The notes beneath the pieces were generated by a model. The model was not told the origin of the DNA, did not search any database, and saw only the letters and a list, made by a program, of their open reading frames with translations. From the NCBI GenBank assembly GCA_000004985.1, contig GG738855.1: a stretch of 64,000 nt of DNA; one strand, 5' to 3'. Source of the DNA: Naegleria gruberi. Taxonomy: Eukaryota. How positions within the stretch are numbered: position 1 is the first letter of the stretch; each line of letters begins with the position of its first letter. Below are positions 8,292 through 14,597 of this stretch, piece after piece. The position numbers and the translations under genes are program-made.

Positions 8292-11012
8292 CTAGTTTAG
8301 GAAAATTTTTACCTTGGATTCAATCTTTCCTCGACATGTTGGACAATTGACTTGATTGGAAATACAATCCAAACAAAATAAGTGTCCACACGGAACACTC
8401 ACATGATCTACCTTATTATCCATACAAATAATACATTCAAATAGTTCTTGTTGATGTAAATGTTCATGATTATTGACTTTGGGTTCTTGTGATTCTAAAT
8501 CTTCATAATATTTAGCAAGTTTTCCAATCAAATCTTGATTTTCCTTTTCCTTCTCCTCCAAGTCACATAAAAATTGATGAGTTTGAGTTTCCAATTGAGT
8601 ACATTCCCTATTAAGTTTTAAAACTTGTTGTTCGAGATTAGTGTTGGAGAGTCGAAGATTTTGAATGATATTCGATTGTTCTACAGTCTTTTTCTTGAGA
8701 TTTTCCTTTTCCAAATCTAATTGCTTGTTAGATTGGGTCATTTCATTAAGTTTAGTTTCTAATTGTTGAACTTTCTTTTCCACTTGTTGACTTTTCTTTG
8801 AATCAATTTCCTTAACTTTCCTTTCGAATTGTCTATTTTCATTTTCCAATCGTGATTTTTCTTGGTGTAAAATTTCCATTCTCTTTTCATACTTTAAATT
8901 GGATGTGATCAACTCTTTGGATATATTTTCTAAATTGAACTTGGATCGATTGAGTTCAAGTGTCAAATCCTTTACTGAAATCTCCAAATTCTGAACTTGA
9001 AATTCTCTGTCTGAAAGAGTTTTCTTCAAATTATCCATTTCAGAGACTTGGTCGATGAGCTGGTGCATTGTATTTGTTTTTCTTTTCAATGCAAATTGTA
9101 ACAATTCCACTTGTTCTCTTAATTCCACTTCTCTTAATGATTCACTTGATGATTCTTTAATTTCTTTCATTGATTGTTCAGGAATTTTCTGTTGTGGAAT
9201 ATCTTTAACAGGTTCTGGATGTTTTTTGCTATAATTTTCCTCACATTTACCAGAGCAACATGAAAACTTTCCACATTTGGTCTTTTGTGTTGTGTATTTT
9301 TGACATTCCACACATTGCCAATCATACAATTCCAAATTATCCTTCAAATTTCTAAAGTGATATCTCAAATCAAAGCAATAAATCTTGTTGCTTAATTTTT
9401 TCAATCTATCCATTCCTCCATAAACATACAATCTCATTTTTGAAACATGATTACAATATCCAGTTAATGCTTCCATATTCTTTGAAGTAGTCAGAACCTT
9501 TTCCCAATTGAATGTATTCAAGTCGAGTGACCAAATTTCATTACTTGCCACTCCATTCATTCCTGTACCCCCATAAAACACTAAAGCCCTGTCCTTTCCA
9601 TTGATTTTCACTTTAGACCAACCACAGTGAGTCATTGGAGGTGGTTTAGTCTTGGAAATGTTAGAAATTTCAATCCATTCGAGAGAAGAACAATCAAATA
9701 GCCACATATCGTTCAAAGAATCCAATCTTGATCCATCTCCACCATATAAAATCAAATATTTTCCATTGCAAATACTAGTCATGCAAGATTTTGATTTGTC
9801 TGAAGGACAAGGTTTGGAAATGTTCAATTTTTGAAGCTTTTCATTCTTGATATCATATCTGAAAAAGGTTCCAACATTTTTACATAATTCACCTGAATAC
9901 TGTCTACCTCCATAAATGTAAATAAATCCAGGAACACTTGCTGCACATGAAAGAACCAAATTAAACTTGAATTTTAACTTTTTCCATTCGAATGTCTTTA
10001 AACAGAGTCGAAAGGATCCATCATTAACTCCATCATCTCCTCCACCAATTAAATAAGCATACTTTTCCTCAAAATCAGAAATGAAAACATGTCCATTTCT
10101 TCTTCCAGCTTCAGGAATTTCTCCACTAACCACTGGAGTAATAAGTATATTCGAGTAAGTATCCAACATGATTAATTCACCAAAAGTTTCACTCATTTGT
10201 CGAGAAATCAAATCCTTTTCTGTATGAGAAATACCTCCCCAATAGAAAATTGAAGAATCATTGTAAATAAATCCAGAATGTAAAACTCTTTCTGTCATTA
10301 CATAATCTGTTACAATAATTTTCCATTTTGGAGGTTCAGTCAACTCTTCTACTTTTTGTTTGTGAGATTCTTTCAGTTGTGAAATAATTTTCTGATCATC
10401 CACAAAAAACAATTCATTAGGATTGTCAATTCTCAATCCTGGCCATTCATCCGAATAGATTTTGTAATATGGATTCTTAATAATGACATATCTACCAACT
10501 CTAAACTCTTCAGATATATTAACTTTTCCATAATTGTAAATAGCTAATTGAACAATATTAGTATTTAAATCAGTCAACCCATTTTCTACAATAGTCATCA
10601 CTGATGTCATTCTAAACACTGGTTGACAAATTCTAGCAAATAAATATTTCCCTCTATTTGGATGATTTGGTGAATTATTTGGTGAGAGTTTCAATTGTTC
10701 AATCTGAATCAATTCCATTCCCTTTACAATTTCCAAATCTTTCACAACCTGACCTTTCCACACTTGTCCTCTATCCTTCCATGCACAAACATCCCCTTCC
10801 GATGGTCGATATTTAATCAATGCTGTTGAATGATGTTTGAGAATGGCTGCTCGTGTAAATCTTTCCTTGGAAACTTGATTTGTAGTTGGAGGTTGAAAGG
10901 CAGTGGCTTGTTCTGTGTAGTTGTGTAGACCGTGATCACCCATTTCGTTTCGCATTTCTGTCATGAGAGCATGATAAACCTCGGGTGAGAGATTGGAGAG
11001 CAAGTCATCCAT
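8292..11012 (-). CDS. Kelch-repeat / coiled-coil / C-terminal C3HC4 RING protein (putative E3 ubiquitin ligase)
   Basis: Likely start is the Met at 11012 (MDDLLSNL...); the ORF-track start at 11135 is upstream. Six Kelch-like blades (WGGISH, IYIYGGRQ, LILYGGDG, LVFYGGTG, LYVYGGMD). A B-box-like CVECQKYTTQKTKCGKFSCCSGKC. About 200 aa of heptad coiled coil. Terminal RING CIICMDNKVDHVSVPCGHLFCLDCISNQVNCPTCRG. Confidence 0.7.
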   Translation of the reverse strand: MDDLLSNLSPEVYHALMTEMRNEMGDHGLHNYTEQATAFQPPTTNQVSKERFTRAAILKHHSTALIKYRPSEGDVCAWKDRGQVWKGQVVKDLEIVKGMELIQIEQLKLSPNNSPNHPNRGKYLFARICQPVFRMTSVMTIVENGLTDLNTNIVQLAIYNYGKVNISEEFRVGRYVIIKNPYYKIYSDEWPGLRIDNPNELFFVDDQKIISQLKESHKQKVEELTEPPKWKIIVTDYVMTERVLHSGFIYNDSSIFYWGGISHTEKDLISRQMSETFGELIMLDTYSNILITPVVSGEIPEAGRRNGHVFISDFEEKYAYLIGGGDDGVNDGSFRLCLKTFEWKKLKFKFNLVLSCAASVPGFIYIYGGRQYSGELCKNVGTFFRYDIKNEKLQKLNISKPCPSDKSKSCMTSICNGKYLILYGGDGSRLDSLNDMWLFDCSSLEWIEISNISKTKPPPMTHCGWSKVKINGKDRALVFYGGTGMNGVASNEIWSLDLNTFNWEKVLTTSKNMEALTGYCNHVSKMRLYVYGGMDRLKKLSNKIYCFDLRYHFRNLKDNLELYDWQCVECQKYTTQKTKCGKFSCCSGKCEENYSKKHPEPVKDIPQQKIPEQSMKEIKESSSESLREVELREQVELLQFALKRKTNTMHQLIDQVSEMDNLKKTLSDREFQVQNLEISVKDLTLELNRSKFNLENISKELITSNLKYEKRMEILHQEKSRLENENRQFERKVKEIDSKKSQQVEKKVQQLETKLNEMTQSNKQLDLEKENLKKKTVEQSNIIQNLRLSNTNLEQQVLKLNRECTQLETQTHQFLCDLEEKEKENQDLIGKLAKYYEDLESQEPKVNNHEHLHQQELFECIICMDNKVDHVSVPCGHLFCLDCISNQVNCPTCRGKIESKVKIFLN

Positions 11013-11235
11013 TTTGTTTTGATATTTTTTTCGAAAAAGAAATGAAAGTAAAGAAATTGGTTTTTTGAAGAATTGGGAATTGTTAAAAATGCCTGAATGG
11101 AATAGTTTATCAAGAATTCCTTGCCATAAACACAATATATGAAAAAAGAATGTTTGAAAGAAGGTAGTACATTGAATACATTGATTTAATGAATTAGTGA
11201 AATAGCAACTACTAGTAAGAGAAAGGATTCTACCA

Positions 11236-11475
11236 TTGAATCAACTCCACCAACCAAACAATTCAATCTTGGAAGAATTCCTTCCCATATTGGATAATGT
11301 TAAACTCAACAAGTGTCCTCCAAGACCTTCATCCAATATTTCTCATGAATATGGTTTGAAATTGGCAAGGGCTTATCTTGAATATGTCCAAGAATTGTAT
11401 GATCATTTCCCAGATAAATTCAAGAATAATGAAAAGAGAATGGAAACTTGGCAGAAATTCAAAAATGCATGTTGA
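11236..11475 (+). CDS. Small hypothetical ORF (79 aa)
   Basis: ATG-started ORF with ordinary codon usage and a weak LYR-like motif (LARAYLEY). It could instead be the 5' exon of the downstream HNH-like ORF through a weak donor. Unresolved. Confidence 0.25.
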   Translation: MNQLHQPNNSILEEFLPILDNVKLNKCPPRPSSNISHEYGLKLARAYLEYVQELYDHFPDKFKNNEKRMETWQKFKNAC

Positions 11476-11537
11476 ACACATATAATTTTATTTGATGAAA
11501 AACAACATTTTAGGTCGTAACTTTTTTAAGTGAAGTA

Positions 11538-12188
11538 TTGGAGAAGGATGATTTGTCAATCAAGTGCAATAGATGTCGTATTGAAATGGAACATTTACAT
11601 GAGGTTAATGCATTCACTCTTCATCATGTCATGTATAAGGATCACGACTTTACAAAGACATTTAGGAGTACAACAAAATTCATTCCCGAGTTCAAAAAGT
11701 TTGGTGCTGATTGGTTCAAGAAGAATGAAAAGTTGGAAGTATTGTGTAGACCTTGTCATGGTTTGGAACATGCAAGGAATGTTGAAGGTGGTTCTAATTG
11801 GCAATATTGTCATGAAAAGATGATCAACCTGATGGGAGGAAAATGTCAGGAATGTGGTCTGTCTTTTGAATCCAATTCAGAATTGGGAAAGATCTTTCAT
11901 GTGCATCACAAGAATAGGGATGGTGTGAAGAAGAGAGCCCAAGCAACAGAAGATATTGATGATGAAGAGAGGGAAATAGCCAATAATGTTAATGAGTACA
12001 AGTTAATTCTTGCAATGACTGAAGAACAACAATTAGAAAAGTTGAAGGAATTTGAATTGCTCTGTGATGGATGCCATTATTTTGAGCACATGGAAAAGCA
12101 TGCAAGATCGGAAGTTATTGATTTAGGAATGAAGGAGAGAATGATGAACTTGTTGAGTTTTCAGAGAGTATTGTCTATGGAAAAATAA
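11538..12188 (+). CDS. Tandem HNH-nuclease-like zinc-finger protein (two CxxC...HH...N...LCxxCH..EH modules)
   Basis: Module 1: CNRC...HHVMYKDHD...NEKLEVLCRPCHGLEHA. Module 2: CQECG...HVHHKNRD...EFELLCDGCHYFEHM. Each has the beta-beta-alpha-Me/HNH signature plus a flanking CxxC zinc site. The track start is a TTG; the first ATG is at 11586 (MEHLHEV). The frame is open upstream to an AG at 11513, so it could be an internal exon. Confidence 0.5.
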   Translation: MEKDDLSIKCNRCRIEMEHLHEVNAFTLHHVMYKDHDFTKTFRSTTKFIPEFKKFGADWFKKNEKLEVLCRPCHGLEHARNVEGGSNWQYCHEKMINLMGGKCQECGLSFESNSELGKIFHVHHKNRDGVKKRAQATEDIDDEEREIANNVNEYKLILAMTEEQQLEKLKEFELLCDGCHYFEHMEKHARSEVIDLGMKERMMNLLSFQRVLSMEK

Positions 12189-12849
12189 GCAGCCAGGGTT
12201 TTGCACAACAAAGCACATTGTACAATTGCACACTGATTGGTTTTGCTAAATTAATTGCAGATATTTTTTGAAAATAATAAAATAAATTGGTTAATTAAAA
12301 AATATAATAAGCTTTTCTGTAAAATTTTTCAACCATTAATAGACTTTATAACCAAGCAAACGATTACTTTACAACAGTCAAATGAAAACATGAAAATGTG
12401 AAAATGAAAATTTTTGTTTGTTGAAAATGAATATTATCCATTTTGCAATCGAATTAGTAATTGCGGATCCGTAATTAGACCTCACTTGCCAGGTTTGCCT
12501 GTTGTGTCTTTAAGCAATGGAGTACACTACAATTTCCTTTTTGCTTTAAATTTTAATCTCAAAACGTGGCATCTTAAATATTTCGAATTTACAAGAATTT
12601 ACAAGAATTACACGTTTGGTACTGAATGACAACTTGAAAATTTTTAAAAAATCGGAATTAATTTCCGAAAAGAAAAATTCAAGCCAAAAACCTATCGACA
12701 CTTTAGAACAGCTCGTTCTCGATAACTACTTGGAGATGGAAGGTAATATTTCAGATATAGGTAGCACAGCATGTGAATGTGAAGATATAGAAAGTTGAAA
12801 GATCGAAAAAGTAAAAGGATGGTGAAAATAGCAAAAGATTAAAATTCAA

Positions 12850-12921
12850 ATGGCTATTGAGGGGATTGAACCCTCGACCTTCTCCTTACGAGAGAGAAGC
12901 TCTACCACTGAGCTAAACAGC
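12850..12921 (-). tRNA. tRNA-Thr (anticodon CGU), 72 nt, no intron
   Basis: Minus-strand GGCTGTTTAGCTCAGTGGTAGAGCTTCTCTCTCGTAAGGAGAAGGTCGAGGGTTCAATCCCCTCAATAGCCA. The 7-bp acceptor stem has one G-U pair. D arm GCTC/GAGC. Anticodon loop CTCGTAA reads anticodon CGT. T arm GAGGG-TTCAATC-CCCTC. Discriminator A. Box A (TAGCTCAGTGG) and box B (GGTTCAATCC) are present. Confidence 0.9.
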
Positions 12922-13393
12922 CTGTGGTGATTTATTAAAAAAATTGAATTTCACTTTACCTCATTGATAGGATGAAAAATATTGACTAATAAAATTATTT
13001 TCAAATTCTAGCTTGGAATAAAAATGTTTTTCCCACTCTAGTTTTTTATTACAATACGCTATACATGTTCGTATACGTGAAAATTCTCTAGACTTGTCGT
13101 CAGTTTTTTAATTTACTTTTGAAAACACTGTAGTGTAACTAGTCTTTTATTTGTTGGAGTGAATTAATGAAAATTGAAATTAAAGTACATTAATACACAA
13201 TTTATATTAACGTTTAATATCTTATAAAATTGAATTCTTCTAAATCCTAATATTAAAAATTACGTTGTGGGCAACAACAAAAGCACATTTCATTCTTTTT
13301 CATGAAAGTTGTAATCTAAAGCTCCATACTATTCAACATGACAACTCCGAAATATCAATAATATAATCATCATTTAAAAAATCAAAAAAAAAA

Positions 13394-14597
13394 ATGCTAC
13401 TCCATCCACGTACATTTATTCTCATCCTTGCCATTCTCTTTTGTGGATGTAATACATTGATTATCAACGGAGCCGAGCTCGGCTTCAAGTTGAAACACAA
13501 TATTAAATTATTAAAAACCAATGATCGTCCAATTATAGGAATTATTGCACAACCAACAGGACGTACATTGAGTAGATATGGTAACACCTATATTGCTGCA
13601 TCCTATGTTAAATATGTTGAATCTGGTGGTGCTCGTGTTGTTCCAATTCCATATAATTTACCTGAAAGTCAATTACGTACATTATTTGAATCTTTGAATG
13701 GTGTTGTTTTTCCAGGAGGTAAATATTAATAATTTGAAATTTCATGATGTGAATAATTGAATATTTATATTGATGATGATGATCAATGAAATTTATGAAT
13801 GAAATTTATATTGAATATTTAAATTGGAATTTAATATATGAAAATATATGAAATTCATAAATGAAAATACATGATTTGTATAATGAAAATATATAGGTGG
13901 TACCGATTTAACCAATAATGATGGTTCTTGGACTCCATATTTAAAAACTTTAGGATTATTTGTCAAGTGGTCAATGGAATCCTATGATAAAAATCAAGAT
14001 TCCTTCCCAATTTGGGGAACTTGTTTGGGAATGCAATCCTTGACAATTATCTTGTCTGGTGATTCTAACATTCTTGCTGGTGGATTTGATAGTTATAACA
14101 TTTCAATGCCATTGAATTTTACAAATTCAATTCCAGACACTAAAAAGATGAGTAGAATTTTCAATAATTGTCCAATTTCATACATGAATACTTTGGCAAC
14201 TCAACCTGTCACTCTTAATAATCATCATTATGGTGTTCCTATTCCATCTTGGATGACCAATCAAAAGCTCACTTCTGAAAATTTACTTTTAGCAATTAAT
14301 AAGGATAGAAATGGAAAGGGATTTATTTCACTTTATGAAAACAAGAGATATCCAATCTATGCCAGTCAATTCCATCCAGAAAAAATTGCCTTTGAATGGT
14401 GTCATGAAGATATCGATCATTCATTTGATAGTTTACAAGCTAACATGTACTTTTCTCAATTCTTTGTCAATGAAGCTAGAAAGAGTCAACACAAATTCCA
14501 AAATGAACAAAGTGAACTTGCCTCATTGATTTACAATTACAATCCAGTTTACACTTATCCAGTTGAACCAGATTTTGCTCAATGTTATTTCTTTTAA
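13394..14597 (+). CDS. GGH: Gamma-glutamyl hydrolase (folylpolyglutamate hydrolase), 2 exons join(13394..13718,13897..14597), secreted/lysosomal
   Basis: Signal-peptide-like N-terminus. Exon 1 ends G|GTAAAT (phase 1). The 178-nt AT-rich intron ends atatAG. The joined protein (...VVFPGGGTDL..., PIWGTCLGMQSL, QFHPEK, FFVNEARKSQHKF, YPVEPDFAQCYFF) aligns end to end with GGH, including the catalytic Cys (WGTCLG) and His (FHPEK). Confidence 0.9.

What the first reader, a model, noticed from the sequence alone, without database searches (positions are those of the whole stretch)
11538..12188. Tandem double-HNH zinc-finger nuclease-like ORF next to a tRNA gene
Two consecutive modules each carry CxxC ... 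HH ... N ... LCxxCH..EH, the beta-beta-alpha-Me signature of HNH endonucleases. These are typical of phage or homing nucleases, McrA and colicins. The gene sits 660 nt from a tRNA-Thr gene in an otherwise housekeeping eukaryotic neighbourhood. Its first in-frame codon in the track is TTG, and the frame is open upstream to an acceptor-like AG, so its gene model is unresolved. This could be a domesticated mobile-element or viral nuclease, or a horizontally acquired gene.
Basis: partly seen in the sequence, partly recalled or inferred. Interest (0 to 1): 0.5.

Follow-up and report, generated by a model that had tools for sequence, protein, structure and literature searches.

The report
Decayed tRNA-linked tandem HNH nuclease gene
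The ORF is a real two-domain HNH nuclease sequence, but it is a broken copy of a longer multi-copy gene of Naegleria amoebae, and relatives of that gene lie beside tRNA genes far more often than chance allows, which suggests a previously undescribed selfish or mobile gene.

Summary
The window is Naegleria gruberi DNA. The ORF at 11538-12188 is real. It carries two homologous CxxC...HH...CxxCHxxxH modules, and HNH identity is supported by profile hits and by fold. It is not an intact gene. Compared with a 456-aa N. gruberi paralog (95% identical), this copy has an N-terminal frameshift, a stop at 11473 and a deletion of about 120 aa that removes two zinc ribbons. The GenBank model starts at an internal ATG and so loses the first zinc knuckle.

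The family has at least 4 near-identical N. gruberi copies. It also has diverged, non-syntenic and mostly defective copies in N. fowleri, N. lovaniensis and protist metagenome contigs. In 7 of 9 independent loci a tRNA gene lies within 800 nt (Poisson P about 4e-11), with varying tRNA identity, distance and orientation. The best two-module structural matches are HNH endonucleases of amoeba giant viruses.

My best reading (confidence about 0.55) is a selfish, once mobile nuclease gene that settles next to Pol III-transcribed genes, with a dead copy in this window. Mobility itself is inferred. No element ends, insertion polymorphism or enzyme activity could be tested. I found no description of this family in the literature I could search.

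The parts
11211..11267 (+). Remnant of the K/S/T-rich N-terminal region (matches paralog P0002 aa 46-64). It is in a different frame from the next piece, so there is a frameshifting deletion.
   Evidence: tblastn of P0002 against the window; direct reading of the sequence
11233..11475 (+). Remnant of the conserved N-terminal helical domain (matches P0002 aa 59-114, 86% identity). It ends in an in-frame TGA at 11473-11475.
   Evidence: homologous segments in L001 and L007
11473..11519 (+). Deletion junction. About 120 aa of the full-length protein (P0002 aa ~115-234, two CxxC...CxxC zinc ribbons) are missing here.
   Evidence: no match to P0002 aa 115-234 anywhere in the window
11514..12188 (+). 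Open frame encoding the tandem HNH region (224 codons plus stop). The first in-frame ATG is at 11586, which is the start of the GenBank model XP_002679965 (200 aa). That start lies after the first CxxC.
11565..11771 (+). HNH module 1: CNRC ... HH ... helical insert ... CRPCHGLEH.
   Evidence: AF2 strands 34-38 and 74-78 plus helix 79-88; family invariants
11844..12089 (+). HNH module 2: CQEC ... HVHH ... NEY ... CDGCHYFEH.
   Evidence: AF2 strands 128-132 and 180-184 plus helix 185-192; family invariants
12851..12922 (-). tRNA-Thr(CGT) gene. Its 3' end faces the 3' end of the HNH remnant, 662 nt away. It is one instance of the family-wide tRNA adjacency.
11021..11206 (.). Left arm of a weak direct similarity that brackets the remnant. 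The partner is 12260-12464. Inconclusive.
   Evidence: Smith-Waterman score 29 against shuffles of 19-21 (sd 3.3). None of 85 other window chunks reach it. blastn does not find it at E<=1.
12260..12464 (.). Right arm of the same weak direct similarity. Inconclusive.

Best explanation
The ORF is the still-open 3' part of a dead copy of a selfish, multi-copy gene found in Naegleria and related protists.

The full-length gene encodes a protein of about 450-550 aa. It has a K/R/S-rich N-terminus that looks like a nuclear-localisation signal, a conserved helical domain, two zinc ribbons and two tandem Zn-stabilised HNH nuclease domains. Each domain keeps the catalytic HH and the CxxCHxxxH metal-site residues.

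Inferred mechanism:
- The protein enters the nucleus.
- It binds DNA through the N-terminal and zinc-ribbon parts.
- The two HNH active sites cut the two strands in the flanks of Pol III-transcribed tRNA genes.
- Recognition probably depends on a generic feature of tRNA loci rather than on a sequence, because the neighbouring tRNAs differ.
- Repair of the break copies or captures the nuclease gene there.
- Copies therefore accumulate next to tRNA genes, which are 'safe' sites in a compact genome, and then decay.

Shown: tandem HNH fold and motifs; truncation of this copy; multi-copy, non-syntenic and mostly defective family members; strong tRNA adjacency.

Inferred: nuclease activity, targeting, and the copying step, that is, mobility itself.
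For: HNH identity
- An AF2 model built on a 20-sequence alignment has pLDDT 78 and pTM 0.68. It shows beta-beta-alpha units at both modules.
- Foldseek against BFVD gives giant-virus HNH endonucleases over about 200 aligned columns, E 2e-5 to 8e-4.
- PHROG HNH families hit the window ORF at E 2e-3 to 7e-3 and the family member P0006 at E 1.7e-8.
- HMMER links the ORF to bacterial or phage HNH proteins at E 1e-4 to 2e-5. One of these, P0011, is a strong PHROG HNH at E 1e-36.
- The catalytic His and Cys residues are near-invariant in the family.

Truncated copy
- P0002 (456 aa, same species) matches the window in three pieces in different frames, and its aa ~115-234 are absent.

Selfish or multi-copy behaviour
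- Four N. gruberi proteins fall in one 90% cluster. Two of them are on 2-4 kb contigs.
- The N. fowleri and N. lovaniensis homologs sit among different neighbours.
- Frameshifts, stops or truncations occur in the window, L003, L004, L005, L008 and L013. L001 and L007 have frame breaks.
- GC3 of the ORF is 0.366, at the top of the range for host ORFs in the window (0.287 +/- 0.036).

tRNA link
- A tRNA gene lies within 800 nt in 7 of 9 independent loci.
- Only one other tRNA is found in the remaining 130 kb or so. Poisson P is about 4e-11, and still 1e-5 if tRNA density were 1 per 20 kb.
- In L005 a 155-nt, 79%-identical direct repeat (E 3e-32) starts 7 nt after the tRNA and recurs just past the truncated gene, bracketing it.
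Against: - No element termini were found. There are no TIRs, and only a weak direct repeat flanks the window copy.
- No transposase, integrase or reverse transcriptase belongs to the unit.
- Distance to the tRNA (22-760 nt) and relative orientation vary (three convergent, three tandem, one divergent). Known precise tRNA-targeting elements do not behave like this.
- The one clearly intact metagenomic copy (L002) has no tRNA within 6 kb upstream or 1.1 kb downstream.
- DNA of the other N. gruberi copies could not be obtained. Copy boundaries, target-site duplications and insertion polymorphism are therefore untested.
- Pfam HNH is below threshold everywhere. Foldseek against PDB has no significant hit.
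- The open 224-codon frame is not evidence of selection. At about 5% amino-acid divergence from P0002, a neutral copy would have roughly an even chance of still having no stop (my estimate).
Confidence: 0.55

Rival explanations
1. The HNH gene is a passenger or accessory gene, not an autonomous element. It is moved in trans by, or is part of, a larger element such as a retroelement. Alternatively, copies are retroposed or captured at breaks that are frequent near tRNA genes.
For: - DIRS-like RT/methyltransferase remnants lie 2-3 kb from the HNH copy in both the N. fowleri and N. lovaniensis loci, although these loci are not syntenic.
- Several copies are 5'- or internally truncated.
- The L005 copy is bracketed by a long duplication of the tRNA 3' flank.
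Against: - The RT remnants are on the opposite strand.
- They are absent from the window and from the other loci.
- There is no poly(A) tail after the window copy.
- The N-terminal domain, zinc ribbons and HNH domains travel together as one conserved ORF.
Confidence: 0.17
2. It is a genuine host gene family, domesticated or ancestral, that encodes a nuclear tandem-HNH nuclease with a cellular role. The window locus is simply a pseudogenised paralog, and the tRNA adjacency is incidental to genome organisation.
For: - The family is present in three Naegleria species and in other protist-like contigs at 30-40% identity, so it is old.
- Catalytic residues are conserved in both modules.
- Intact-looking members exist: P0002, and P0007 in L002, which has no tRNA nearby.
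Against: - Most sampled copies are defective.
- There is no synteny between species.
- Near-identical multiple copies include two on tiny unplaced contigs.
- The tRNA adjacency is far beyond chance, and eukaryotic gene function does not normally explain such adjacency.
Confidence: 0.15
3. The copies are fragments of endogenised giant-virus (Nucleocytoviricota) DNA, each acquired by a separate viral integration.
For: - The best two-module structural matches are HNH endonucleases of Clandestinovirus, Medusavirus, Barrevirus, Pithovirus-like and Marseillevirus-like viruses.
- GC3 of the ORF is slightly atypical for the window.
Against: - The flanking genes are ordinary host genes directly abutting the 1-kb remnant.
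- No other viral genes appear in any locus.
- Identity to the viral proteins is only 14-19%.
- The near-identical N. gruberi paralogs indicate amplification within the genome.
- A viral origin of the founder copy remains possible and is compatible with the best explanation.
Confidence: 0.08
4. It is not a nuclease-related sequence at all, only a chance ORF with generic Cys/His zinc ribbons.
For: - Pfam HNH is below the gathering score (14.1 against 21.4 bits).
- PDB sequence searches are insignificant.
- Foldseek against PDB has E > 0.7.
Against: - There are 12 HMMER homologs with conserved motifs.
- 0 of 200,000 shuffles reproduce the motif.
- PHROG HNH families are hit.
Confidence: 0.02

Closest known systems
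HNH endonucleases of amoeba-infecting giant viruses (Clandestinovirus A0A8F8PKE7 and A0A8F8KPY6, Medusavirus A0A3T1CX78 and A0A7S8BDF0, Barrevirus A0A3G4ZSP3)
   Same: These are the best structural matches, spanning about 200 of 224 residues and so both HNH modules (Foldseek E 2e-5 to 8e-4, TM about 0.40-0.45). HNH endonucleases are counted among the common mobile-element genes in giant-virus genomic islands (PMC13620141).
   Different: Sequence identity is only 14-19%. The Naegleria genes sit in nuclear chromosomes between host genes. They carry a family-specific N-terminal domain plus zinc ribbons, and they are linked to tRNA genes. I could not retrieve the viral sequences to test homology directly.
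Free-standing phage HNH homing endonuclease genes (for example T4 mobE), and the GIY-YIG endonuclease SegB in the T4 tRNA gene cluster
   Same: They are small stand-alone nuclease genes wedged between unrelated genes. A T7-like phage contig has a single-module relative between the primase-helicase and DNA polymerase genes (L009). SegB shows that a homing nuclease gene can live in, and drive inheritance of, a tRNA gene region (PMC2330249). mobE is a free-standing HNH homing endonuclease (PMC2790892).
   Different: Those are phage genes that spread by homing between co-infecting genomes at one specific site. Here the gene is in a eukaryotic nucleus, has two HNH modules plus extra domains, and lies next to different tRNA genes at variable distance. 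tblastn against 50,697 phage records found nothing at E<=0.01.
tRNA-gene-targeting retrotransposons (Dictyostelium TRE5/TRE3 and DGLT-A, yeast Ty1/Ty3) - from my own knowledge
   Same: Copies accumulate within a few hundred bp of Pol III-transcribed tRNA genes in a compact genome, regardless of tRNA identity.
   Different: Those elements encode reverse transcriptase and integrase or an AP endonuclease, and they insert at characteristic distances and orientations. This unit has no RT or IN, and its distances and orientations vary (22-760 nt).
KolobokP DNA transposons carrying a His-Me finger nuclease (PMC9587614)
   Same: This is a eukaryotic nuclear mobile element that carries a His-Me/HNH-superfamily homing-type nuclease gene.
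   Different: In KolobokP the nuclease is an accessory gene beside a DDD/E transposase, inside long terminal direct repeats with TTAA target-site duplications, and it is of the I-PpoI/I-HmuI type. No transposase or such termini are present here.
Bacterial or phage-type two-module HNH protein P0011 (229 aa, metagenomic)
   Same: It has two CxxC...HH...CxxCH modules in one chain. It is detectable by HMMER from the window ORF (E 1.9e-5) and is a strong PHROG HNH (E 1e-36).
   Different: It lies in a prokaryote-like gene array next to RtcB, lacks the N-terminal domain and zinc ribbons, and is only about 28% identical over parts.

Membership tests
HNH / His-Me finger nuclease superfamily | beta-beta-alpha-metal fold | tested here: met
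HNH / His-Me finger nuclease superfamily | Catalytic His at the end of strand 1 and a metal-ligand His in the helix, conserved across homologs | tested here: met
   HH and CxxCH are invariant or at least 90% conserved in both modules. The final His of CH...H is invariant in module 2 and is lost only in one decayed member in module 1.
HNH / His-Me finger nuclease superfamily | Central Asn of the H-N-H motif, a few residues before the second CxxC | tested here: not met
   Module 1 has an invariant Glu at -6 instead. The invariant Asn of module 2 (NEY) is about 24 residues upstream, in an inserted helical segment. Variants without this Asn are known in the superfamily (my knowledge).
HNH / His-Me finger nuclease superfamily | Pfam PF01844 match at or above the gathering score | tested here: not met
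   14.1 bits against a cut-off of 21.4 for the window ORF. All family members scanned are sub-threshold. PHROG HNH profiles do hit.
HNH / His-Me finger nuclease superfamily | Metal-dependent DNA cleavage | not testable with these tools
   Needs a biochemical assay.
Free-standing homing endonuclease gene | Site-specific cleavage of an empty allele, and presence/absence polymorphism at that site | not tested
   No second N. gruberi genome or paralog DNA was obtainable. The synteny route failed.
Free-standing homing endonuclease gene | Stand-alone nuclease ORF, sporadic non-syntenic distribution, frequent degeneration | tested here: met
tRNA-gene-targeting transposable elements | Significant enrichment next to tRNA genes irrespective of tRNA identity | tested here: met
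   7 of 9 loci lie within 800 nt of a tRNA. The tRNAs are Thr-CGT x2, Leu-CAG x2, Leu-TAA, Val-CAC and Arg-CCT. P is about 4e-11.
tRNA-gene-targeting transposable elements | Encodes RT/integrase or a transposase | tested here: not met
   No such domains occur in the family proteins. The RT remnants seen in L003 and L004 are separate, on the opposite strand, and absent elsewhere.
tRNA-gene-targeting transposable elements | Characteristic insertion distance and orientation relative to the tRNA | tested here: not met
   Gaps are 22, 174, 274, about 470, about 520, 662 and 762 nt. Convergent, tandem and divergent arrangements all occur.
Cut-and-paste DNA transposon | Terminal inverted repeats and target-site duplication | tested here: not met
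   No inverted-repeat signal flanks any copy. Only L005 has a clear flanking direct repeat.
Endogenous giant-virus insertion | Neighbouring viral hallmark genes or a virus-like gene context | tested here: not met
   Host-type genes flank the copies.

The most novel reading that the evidence does not exclude
This family may be a new class of eukaryotic nuclear mobile element. It would be a single-gene unit of about 1.5 kb whose only enzyme is a tandem-HNH nuclease, possibly descended from giant-virus or phage homing endonucleases. It would propagate by cutting and copying itself into the flanks of Pol III-transcribed tRNA genes in heterolobosean amoebae, without a transposase, integrase or reverse transcriptase.
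Probability: 0.35. Interest if true: 0.8.

Novelty: new variant of a known kind. Interest (0 to 1): 0.6.

Why it matters
All well-studied tRNA-targeting elements of eukaryotes are retrotransposons, and HNH homing endonuclease genes are known mainly from phages, organelles, introns and giant viruses. A nuclear, stand-alone tandem-HNH gene family that tracks tRNA genes would be a new route by which selfish nucleases colonise compact eukaryotic genomes. It would also be a possible trace of gene flow between giant viruses and Naegleria. A single-chain nuclease with two active sites and an unknown mode of Pol III-locus recognition could have practical interest. For annotation, XP_002679965 and its 200-aa paralogs are truncated models of pseudogene-like copies.

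Tried and rejected
- Single-sequence AF2 gave an unusable model (pLDDT 38).
- Word-indexed protein searches returned only the N. gruberi cluster and one N. lovaniensis protein.
- PDB sequence searches with the protein and with a profile were insignificant. NCBIfam gave nothing.
- Look-ups of the contigs encoding the N. gruberi paralogs P0001-P0003 failed. Element ends and copy boundaries in this species could therefore not be defined.
The broad alignment A1 was too divergent to scan with.
- Viral-contig scans gave only one T7-like phage single-HNH gene.
- The bacterial and archaeal genome scan gave one trivial 22-aa match.
- tblastn against 50,697 phage genomes gave no match.
- The afdb50 fold library was unavailable.
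- The synteny test failed. I tried to find the Kelch/RING ortholog in other Naegleria species in order to look for an empty site, but only the gene itself was returned.
- I tried splicing solutions that would join the upstream ORF to the HNH frame. The obvious GT/AG pairs are out of frame, and comparison with the paralog shows a deletion instead.
- The search for TIRs and flanking repeats found no inverted repeats anywhere. Direct repeats were convincing only in L005 and weak in the window.
- Literature searches for Naegleria TEs near tRNA genes, HNH with tRNA genes in eukaryotic transposons, tandem HNH, and the locus tags found no description of this family.
- A sub-threshold Pfam hit of the L008 N-terminus to 'Anticodon nuclease activator' (20.4 bits against 25, a 26-residue model) was dismissed as chance.
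Full report
**1. What is at the coordinates**

The window is Naegleria gruberi nuclear DNA. The ORF product is 100% identical to XP_002679965 / NAEGRDRAFT_64726, a 200-aa 'predicted protein'.

The ORF 11538-12188 exists as described, and the frame is open back to 11514.

Two modules carry CxxC ... HH ... CxxCHxxxH:
- Module 1 spans 11565-11771.
- Module 2 spans 11844-12089.
- The composite motif never appeared in 200,000 shuffles of the same residues.
- Profiles of the two modules align with each other (hhalign probability 92%, E 7e-7), so this is a true tandem duplication.

tRNA-Thr(CGT) is at 12851-12922 on the minus strand, 662 nt downstream. The neighbours are a Kelch/RING gene and a Peptidase_C26/GATase gene.

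**2. Is it HNH?**

Curated sequence models give only weak support:
- Pfam HNH scores 14.1 bits against a cut-off of 21.4, and every relative scanned is also below threshold.
- PDB sequence searches are empty.

Other evidence agrees on HNH:
- An exhaustive HMMER search found 12 proteins. These include bacterial or phage-type HNH proteins at E 1e-4 to 2e-5. One of them, P0011, is a strong PHROG HNH (E 1e-36).
- PHROG HNH families hit the window ORF at E 2e-3 to 7e-3, and the family member P0006 at E 1.7e-8.
- With a 20-sequence alignment, AlphaFold gave a usable model (pLDDT 78, pTM 0.68). Both modules show strand-strand-helix units, separated by helical inserts.
- Foldseek against viral models gives giant-virus HNH endonucleases aligned over both modules (E 2e-5 to 8e-4).
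- Foldseek against PDB is not significant, although its list is again dominated by HNH proteins.

The four Cys, the HH dyad and the CH...H His residues are invariant or nearly so. The canonical central Asn is not present. Module 1 has an invariant Glu, and module 2 has an invariant Asn far upstream.

My conclusion is that this is a tandem Zn-stabilised HNH fold, of a divergent subfamily with a long insert between the two strands.

**3. It is a broken copy, not an unresolved gene model**

The same 90% cluster holds three more N. gruberi proteins:
- P0002 (456 aa), on a 401-kb scaffold.
- P0003 and P0004 (200 aa each), on 3.9-kb and 2.3-kb contigs.

tblastn of P0002 on the window gives three pieces:

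| P0002 residues | Window coordinates | Frame | Identity |
|---|---|---|---|
| 46-64 | 11211-11267 | one frame | 74% |
| 59-109 | 11233-11385 | a second frame | 86% |
| 235-456 | 11520-12185 | same as the first piece | 95% |

- The second piece runs on to a TGA at 11473.
- Residues ~115-234, which hold two CxxC...CxxC zinc ribbons, are absent from the whole window.
- The 'acceptor-like AG' is therefore part of the stop codon TAG at 11511-11513, at a deletion junction.
- The first in-frame ATG (11586) lies after the first CxxC. The annotated 200-aa protein would therefore have a crippled module 1.
- The open 224 codons do not show selection. At about 5% amino-acid divergence, a neutral copy would still have roughly an even chance of lacking a stop (my estimate).

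**4. The family**

Homologs at 27-42% identity come from several sources:
- N. fowleri (P0008, locus L003).
- N. lovaniensis (P0010, L004).
- A Logan run assembly (P0005, L001).
- Environmental assemblies (P0006/L007, P0007/L002, P0009/L005 and L006, P0023/L008, P0014/L013).

Translations of these loci show a shared full-length architecture:
- a K/R/S/T-rich N-terminus, starting MKKR...;
- a conserved helical domain;
- two zinc ribbons;
- two HNH modules.

None of the N-terminal parts matches a Pfam family.

The Naegleria loci are not syntenic with the window or with each other.

Most copies are defective:

| Locus | State |
|---|---|
| L003 | Keeps only the N-terminal low-complexity part, the end of module 1 and module 2 |
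| L004 | Stops after the first CxxC of module 2; the rest is frameshifted |
| L005 | Truncated after the HH of module 2 |
| L008 | Frameshifted, with a decayed module 2 |
| L013 | A frameshift inside module 1 and a stop inside module 2 |
| L001, L007 | Frame breaks between the N-terminal part and the HNH part (could be introns) |
| L002 (P0007) | Uninterrupted |

P0002 is the only other member that looks intact. Its DNA could not be retrieved.

**5. The tRNA link**

It is in fact general for the family.

| Locus | tRNA | Position relative to the gene | Gap (nt) | Arrangement |
|---|---|---|---|---|
| Window | Thr-CGT | 3' of the gene | 662 | convergent |
| L003 | Leu-TAA | 3' of the gene | 22 | convergent |
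| L007 | Arg-CCT | 3' of the gene | 274 | convergent |
| L004 | Leu-CAG | 5' of the gene | 174 | divergent |
| L001 | Leu-CAG | 5' of the gene | about 520 | tandem |
| L005 | Val-CAC | 5' of the gene | about 470 | tandem |
| L008 | Thr-CGT, with an intron | 5' of the gene | 762 | tandem |

- ARAGORN called the L008 tRNA Cys-ACA. Alignment shows it is Thr-CGT with an intron.
- L002 has no tRNA.
- L013 has none upstream, and its contig ends about 320 nt downstream of the gene.
- L006 is the same locus as L005, with too little upstream sequence to be informative.

Across 145 kb of these loci there are 8 tRNA genes. Seven lie within 800 nt of the family gene. Poisson P is about 4e-11, and it is still 1e-5 if tRNA density were 1 per 20 kb.

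Six of the seven copies lie in the 3' flank of the tRNA.

**6. Traces of insertion structure**

- In L005 a direct repeat begins 7 nt after the tRNA-Val gene and recurs just after the truncated HNH remnant, so it brackets the remnant. The repeat is 155 nt at 79% identity, blastn E 3e-32, at 886-1064 and 2086-2254.
- In the window a much weaker direct similarity brackets the remnant (11021-11206 against 12260-12464). It exceeds shuffles and all 85 control chunks, but blastn does not detect it. I treat it as inconclusive.
- No inverted repeats flank any copy.
- L003 and L004 both carry remnants of a DIRS-like retroelement 2-3 kb away on the opposite strand (RVT_1 at E 3e-18, plus a Dam-like methyltransferase segment). 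These are absent from the window and the other loci. I read this as tRNA neighbourhoods collecting mobile DNA in Naegleria, not as one composite element.

**7. Interpretation**

The combination best fits a selfish nuclease gene that is, or was, mobile and that settles next to Pol III-transcribed genes. The elements of that combination are:
- a stand-alone ORF with two nuclease domains;
- near-identical multiple copies in one species;
- scattered, non-syntenic and mostly decayed copies in others;
- codon usage at the edge of the host range (GC3 0.366 against 0.287 +/- 0.036);
- strong adjacency to different tRNA genes.

A plausible mechanism is as follows. The protein is imported into the nucleus. 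It binds DNA through the N-terminal and zinc-ribbon parts. Each HNH site cuts one strand in a tRNA flank. Repair then copies or captures the gene.

Only the anatomy and the distribution are shown. Activity, targeting and the copying step are inferred.

Points against a precise transposon:
- There are no defined termini.
- There is no recombinase.
- Distances and orientations are variable.
- One intact copy has no tRNA nearby.

I put the rival explanations at these confidences:
- trans-mobilised passenger gene, 0.17;
- host gene family with a pseudogene here, 0.15;
- repeated giant-virus endogenisation, 0.08;
- no nuclease at all, 0.02.

**8. Comparison with known systems, and novelty**

In fold, this is an HNH/His-Me finger protein. 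The closest two-module structures are giant-virus HNH endonucleases.

In lifestyle it resembles three known things:
- free-standing phage homing endonuclease genes, including SegB in the T4 tRNA cluster (PMC2330249) and mobE (PMC2790892);
- tRNA-targeting retrotransposons of Dictyostelium and yeast (my knowledge);
- KolobokP, which shows that a His-Me nuclease can ride in a eukaryotic transposon (PMC9587614).

It fails defining features of each of the mobile-element classes. It has no RT or IN, no transposase or TIRs, and no fixed insertion geometry. A homing site was not tested.

I found no paper that describes this family or its locus tags.

I rate it a new variant of a known kind. The window copy itself is an ordinary pseudogene-like remnant.

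Noticed in passing
L003 3771-7334 (minus strand) and L004 6013-6928 (minus strand): Frameshifted remnants of the same DIRS-like retroelement (RVT_1 E 3e-18, plus a Dam-like methyltransferase segment) lie 2-3 kb from the HNH copy and its tRNA in both N. fowleri and N. lovaniensis. The two loci are not syntenic. This suggests that tRNA neighbourhoods collect mobile DNA in Naegleria.
   Followed up: partly
L005 886-1064 and 2086-2254: A 155-nt direct repeat (79% identity, blastn E 3e-32) starts 7 nt after tRNA-Val and recurs right after the truncated HNH remnant, so it brackets the remnant. It could be a long target duplication or terminal repeats.
   Followed up: partly
window 11021-11206 and 12260-12464: A weak direct similarity of about 190 nt flanks the HNH remnant. 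The left arm starts 6 nt upstream of the Kelch/RING start codon. It exceeds shuffles and 85 control chunks but is not detected by blastn.
   Followed up: partly
L008 104-188: ARAGORN calls this tRNA-Cys(ACA). Alignment shows it is a tRNA-Thr(CGT) with an intron of about 11 nt after the anticodon, very similar to the window's tRNA-Thr. Thr-CGT and Leu-CAG each occur twice among the seven tRNA neighbours.
   Followed up: partly
window 11586-12188 (GenBank model XP_002679965) and paralog P0002: There are annotation problems. The 200-aa models start at an internal ATG inside module 1. The P0002 model splices out a 69-nt GT...AG segment (VQELYDHFPDKFKNNEKRMETWQ in the window copy) that is conserved as coding sequence in L001, so that intron is doubtful.
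   Followed up: partly
L010 4533-6690, L011, L012: The prokaryote-type two-module HNH protein P0011 sits directly downstream of an RtcB RNA ligase gene in three metagenomic contigs, among DnaJ, peptide deformylase and helicase genes. The genome could be a large phage or an uncultured bacterium.
   Followed up: no
window 11419-11436 and 11715-11732: An 18-nt near-identical direct repeat (TTCAAGAAKAATGAAAAG) encodes FKNNEK in the N-terminal remnant and FKKNEK just before the module 1 CxxCH. It is probably chance, or an internal echo.
   Followed up: no
L007 about 480-1000 and L013 about 9900-10000: Low-complexity tandem peptide repeats (EQGSDEG...-type in L007, KDMQ/EKD-type in L013) are inserted between conserved domains of the family protein. 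This is consistent with relaxed constraint.
   Followed up: no
window 11514-12185: GC3 of the HNH frame (0.366) is at the upper extreme of the 24 long ORFs in the window (mean 0.287, sd 0.036, maximum 0.365).
   Followed up: partly
window 13394-14597: The gamma-glutamyl-hydrolase-like gene (Peptidase_C26/GATase) is split into at least two ORFs (13394-13729 and 13974-14597), presumably by an intron.
   Followed up: no
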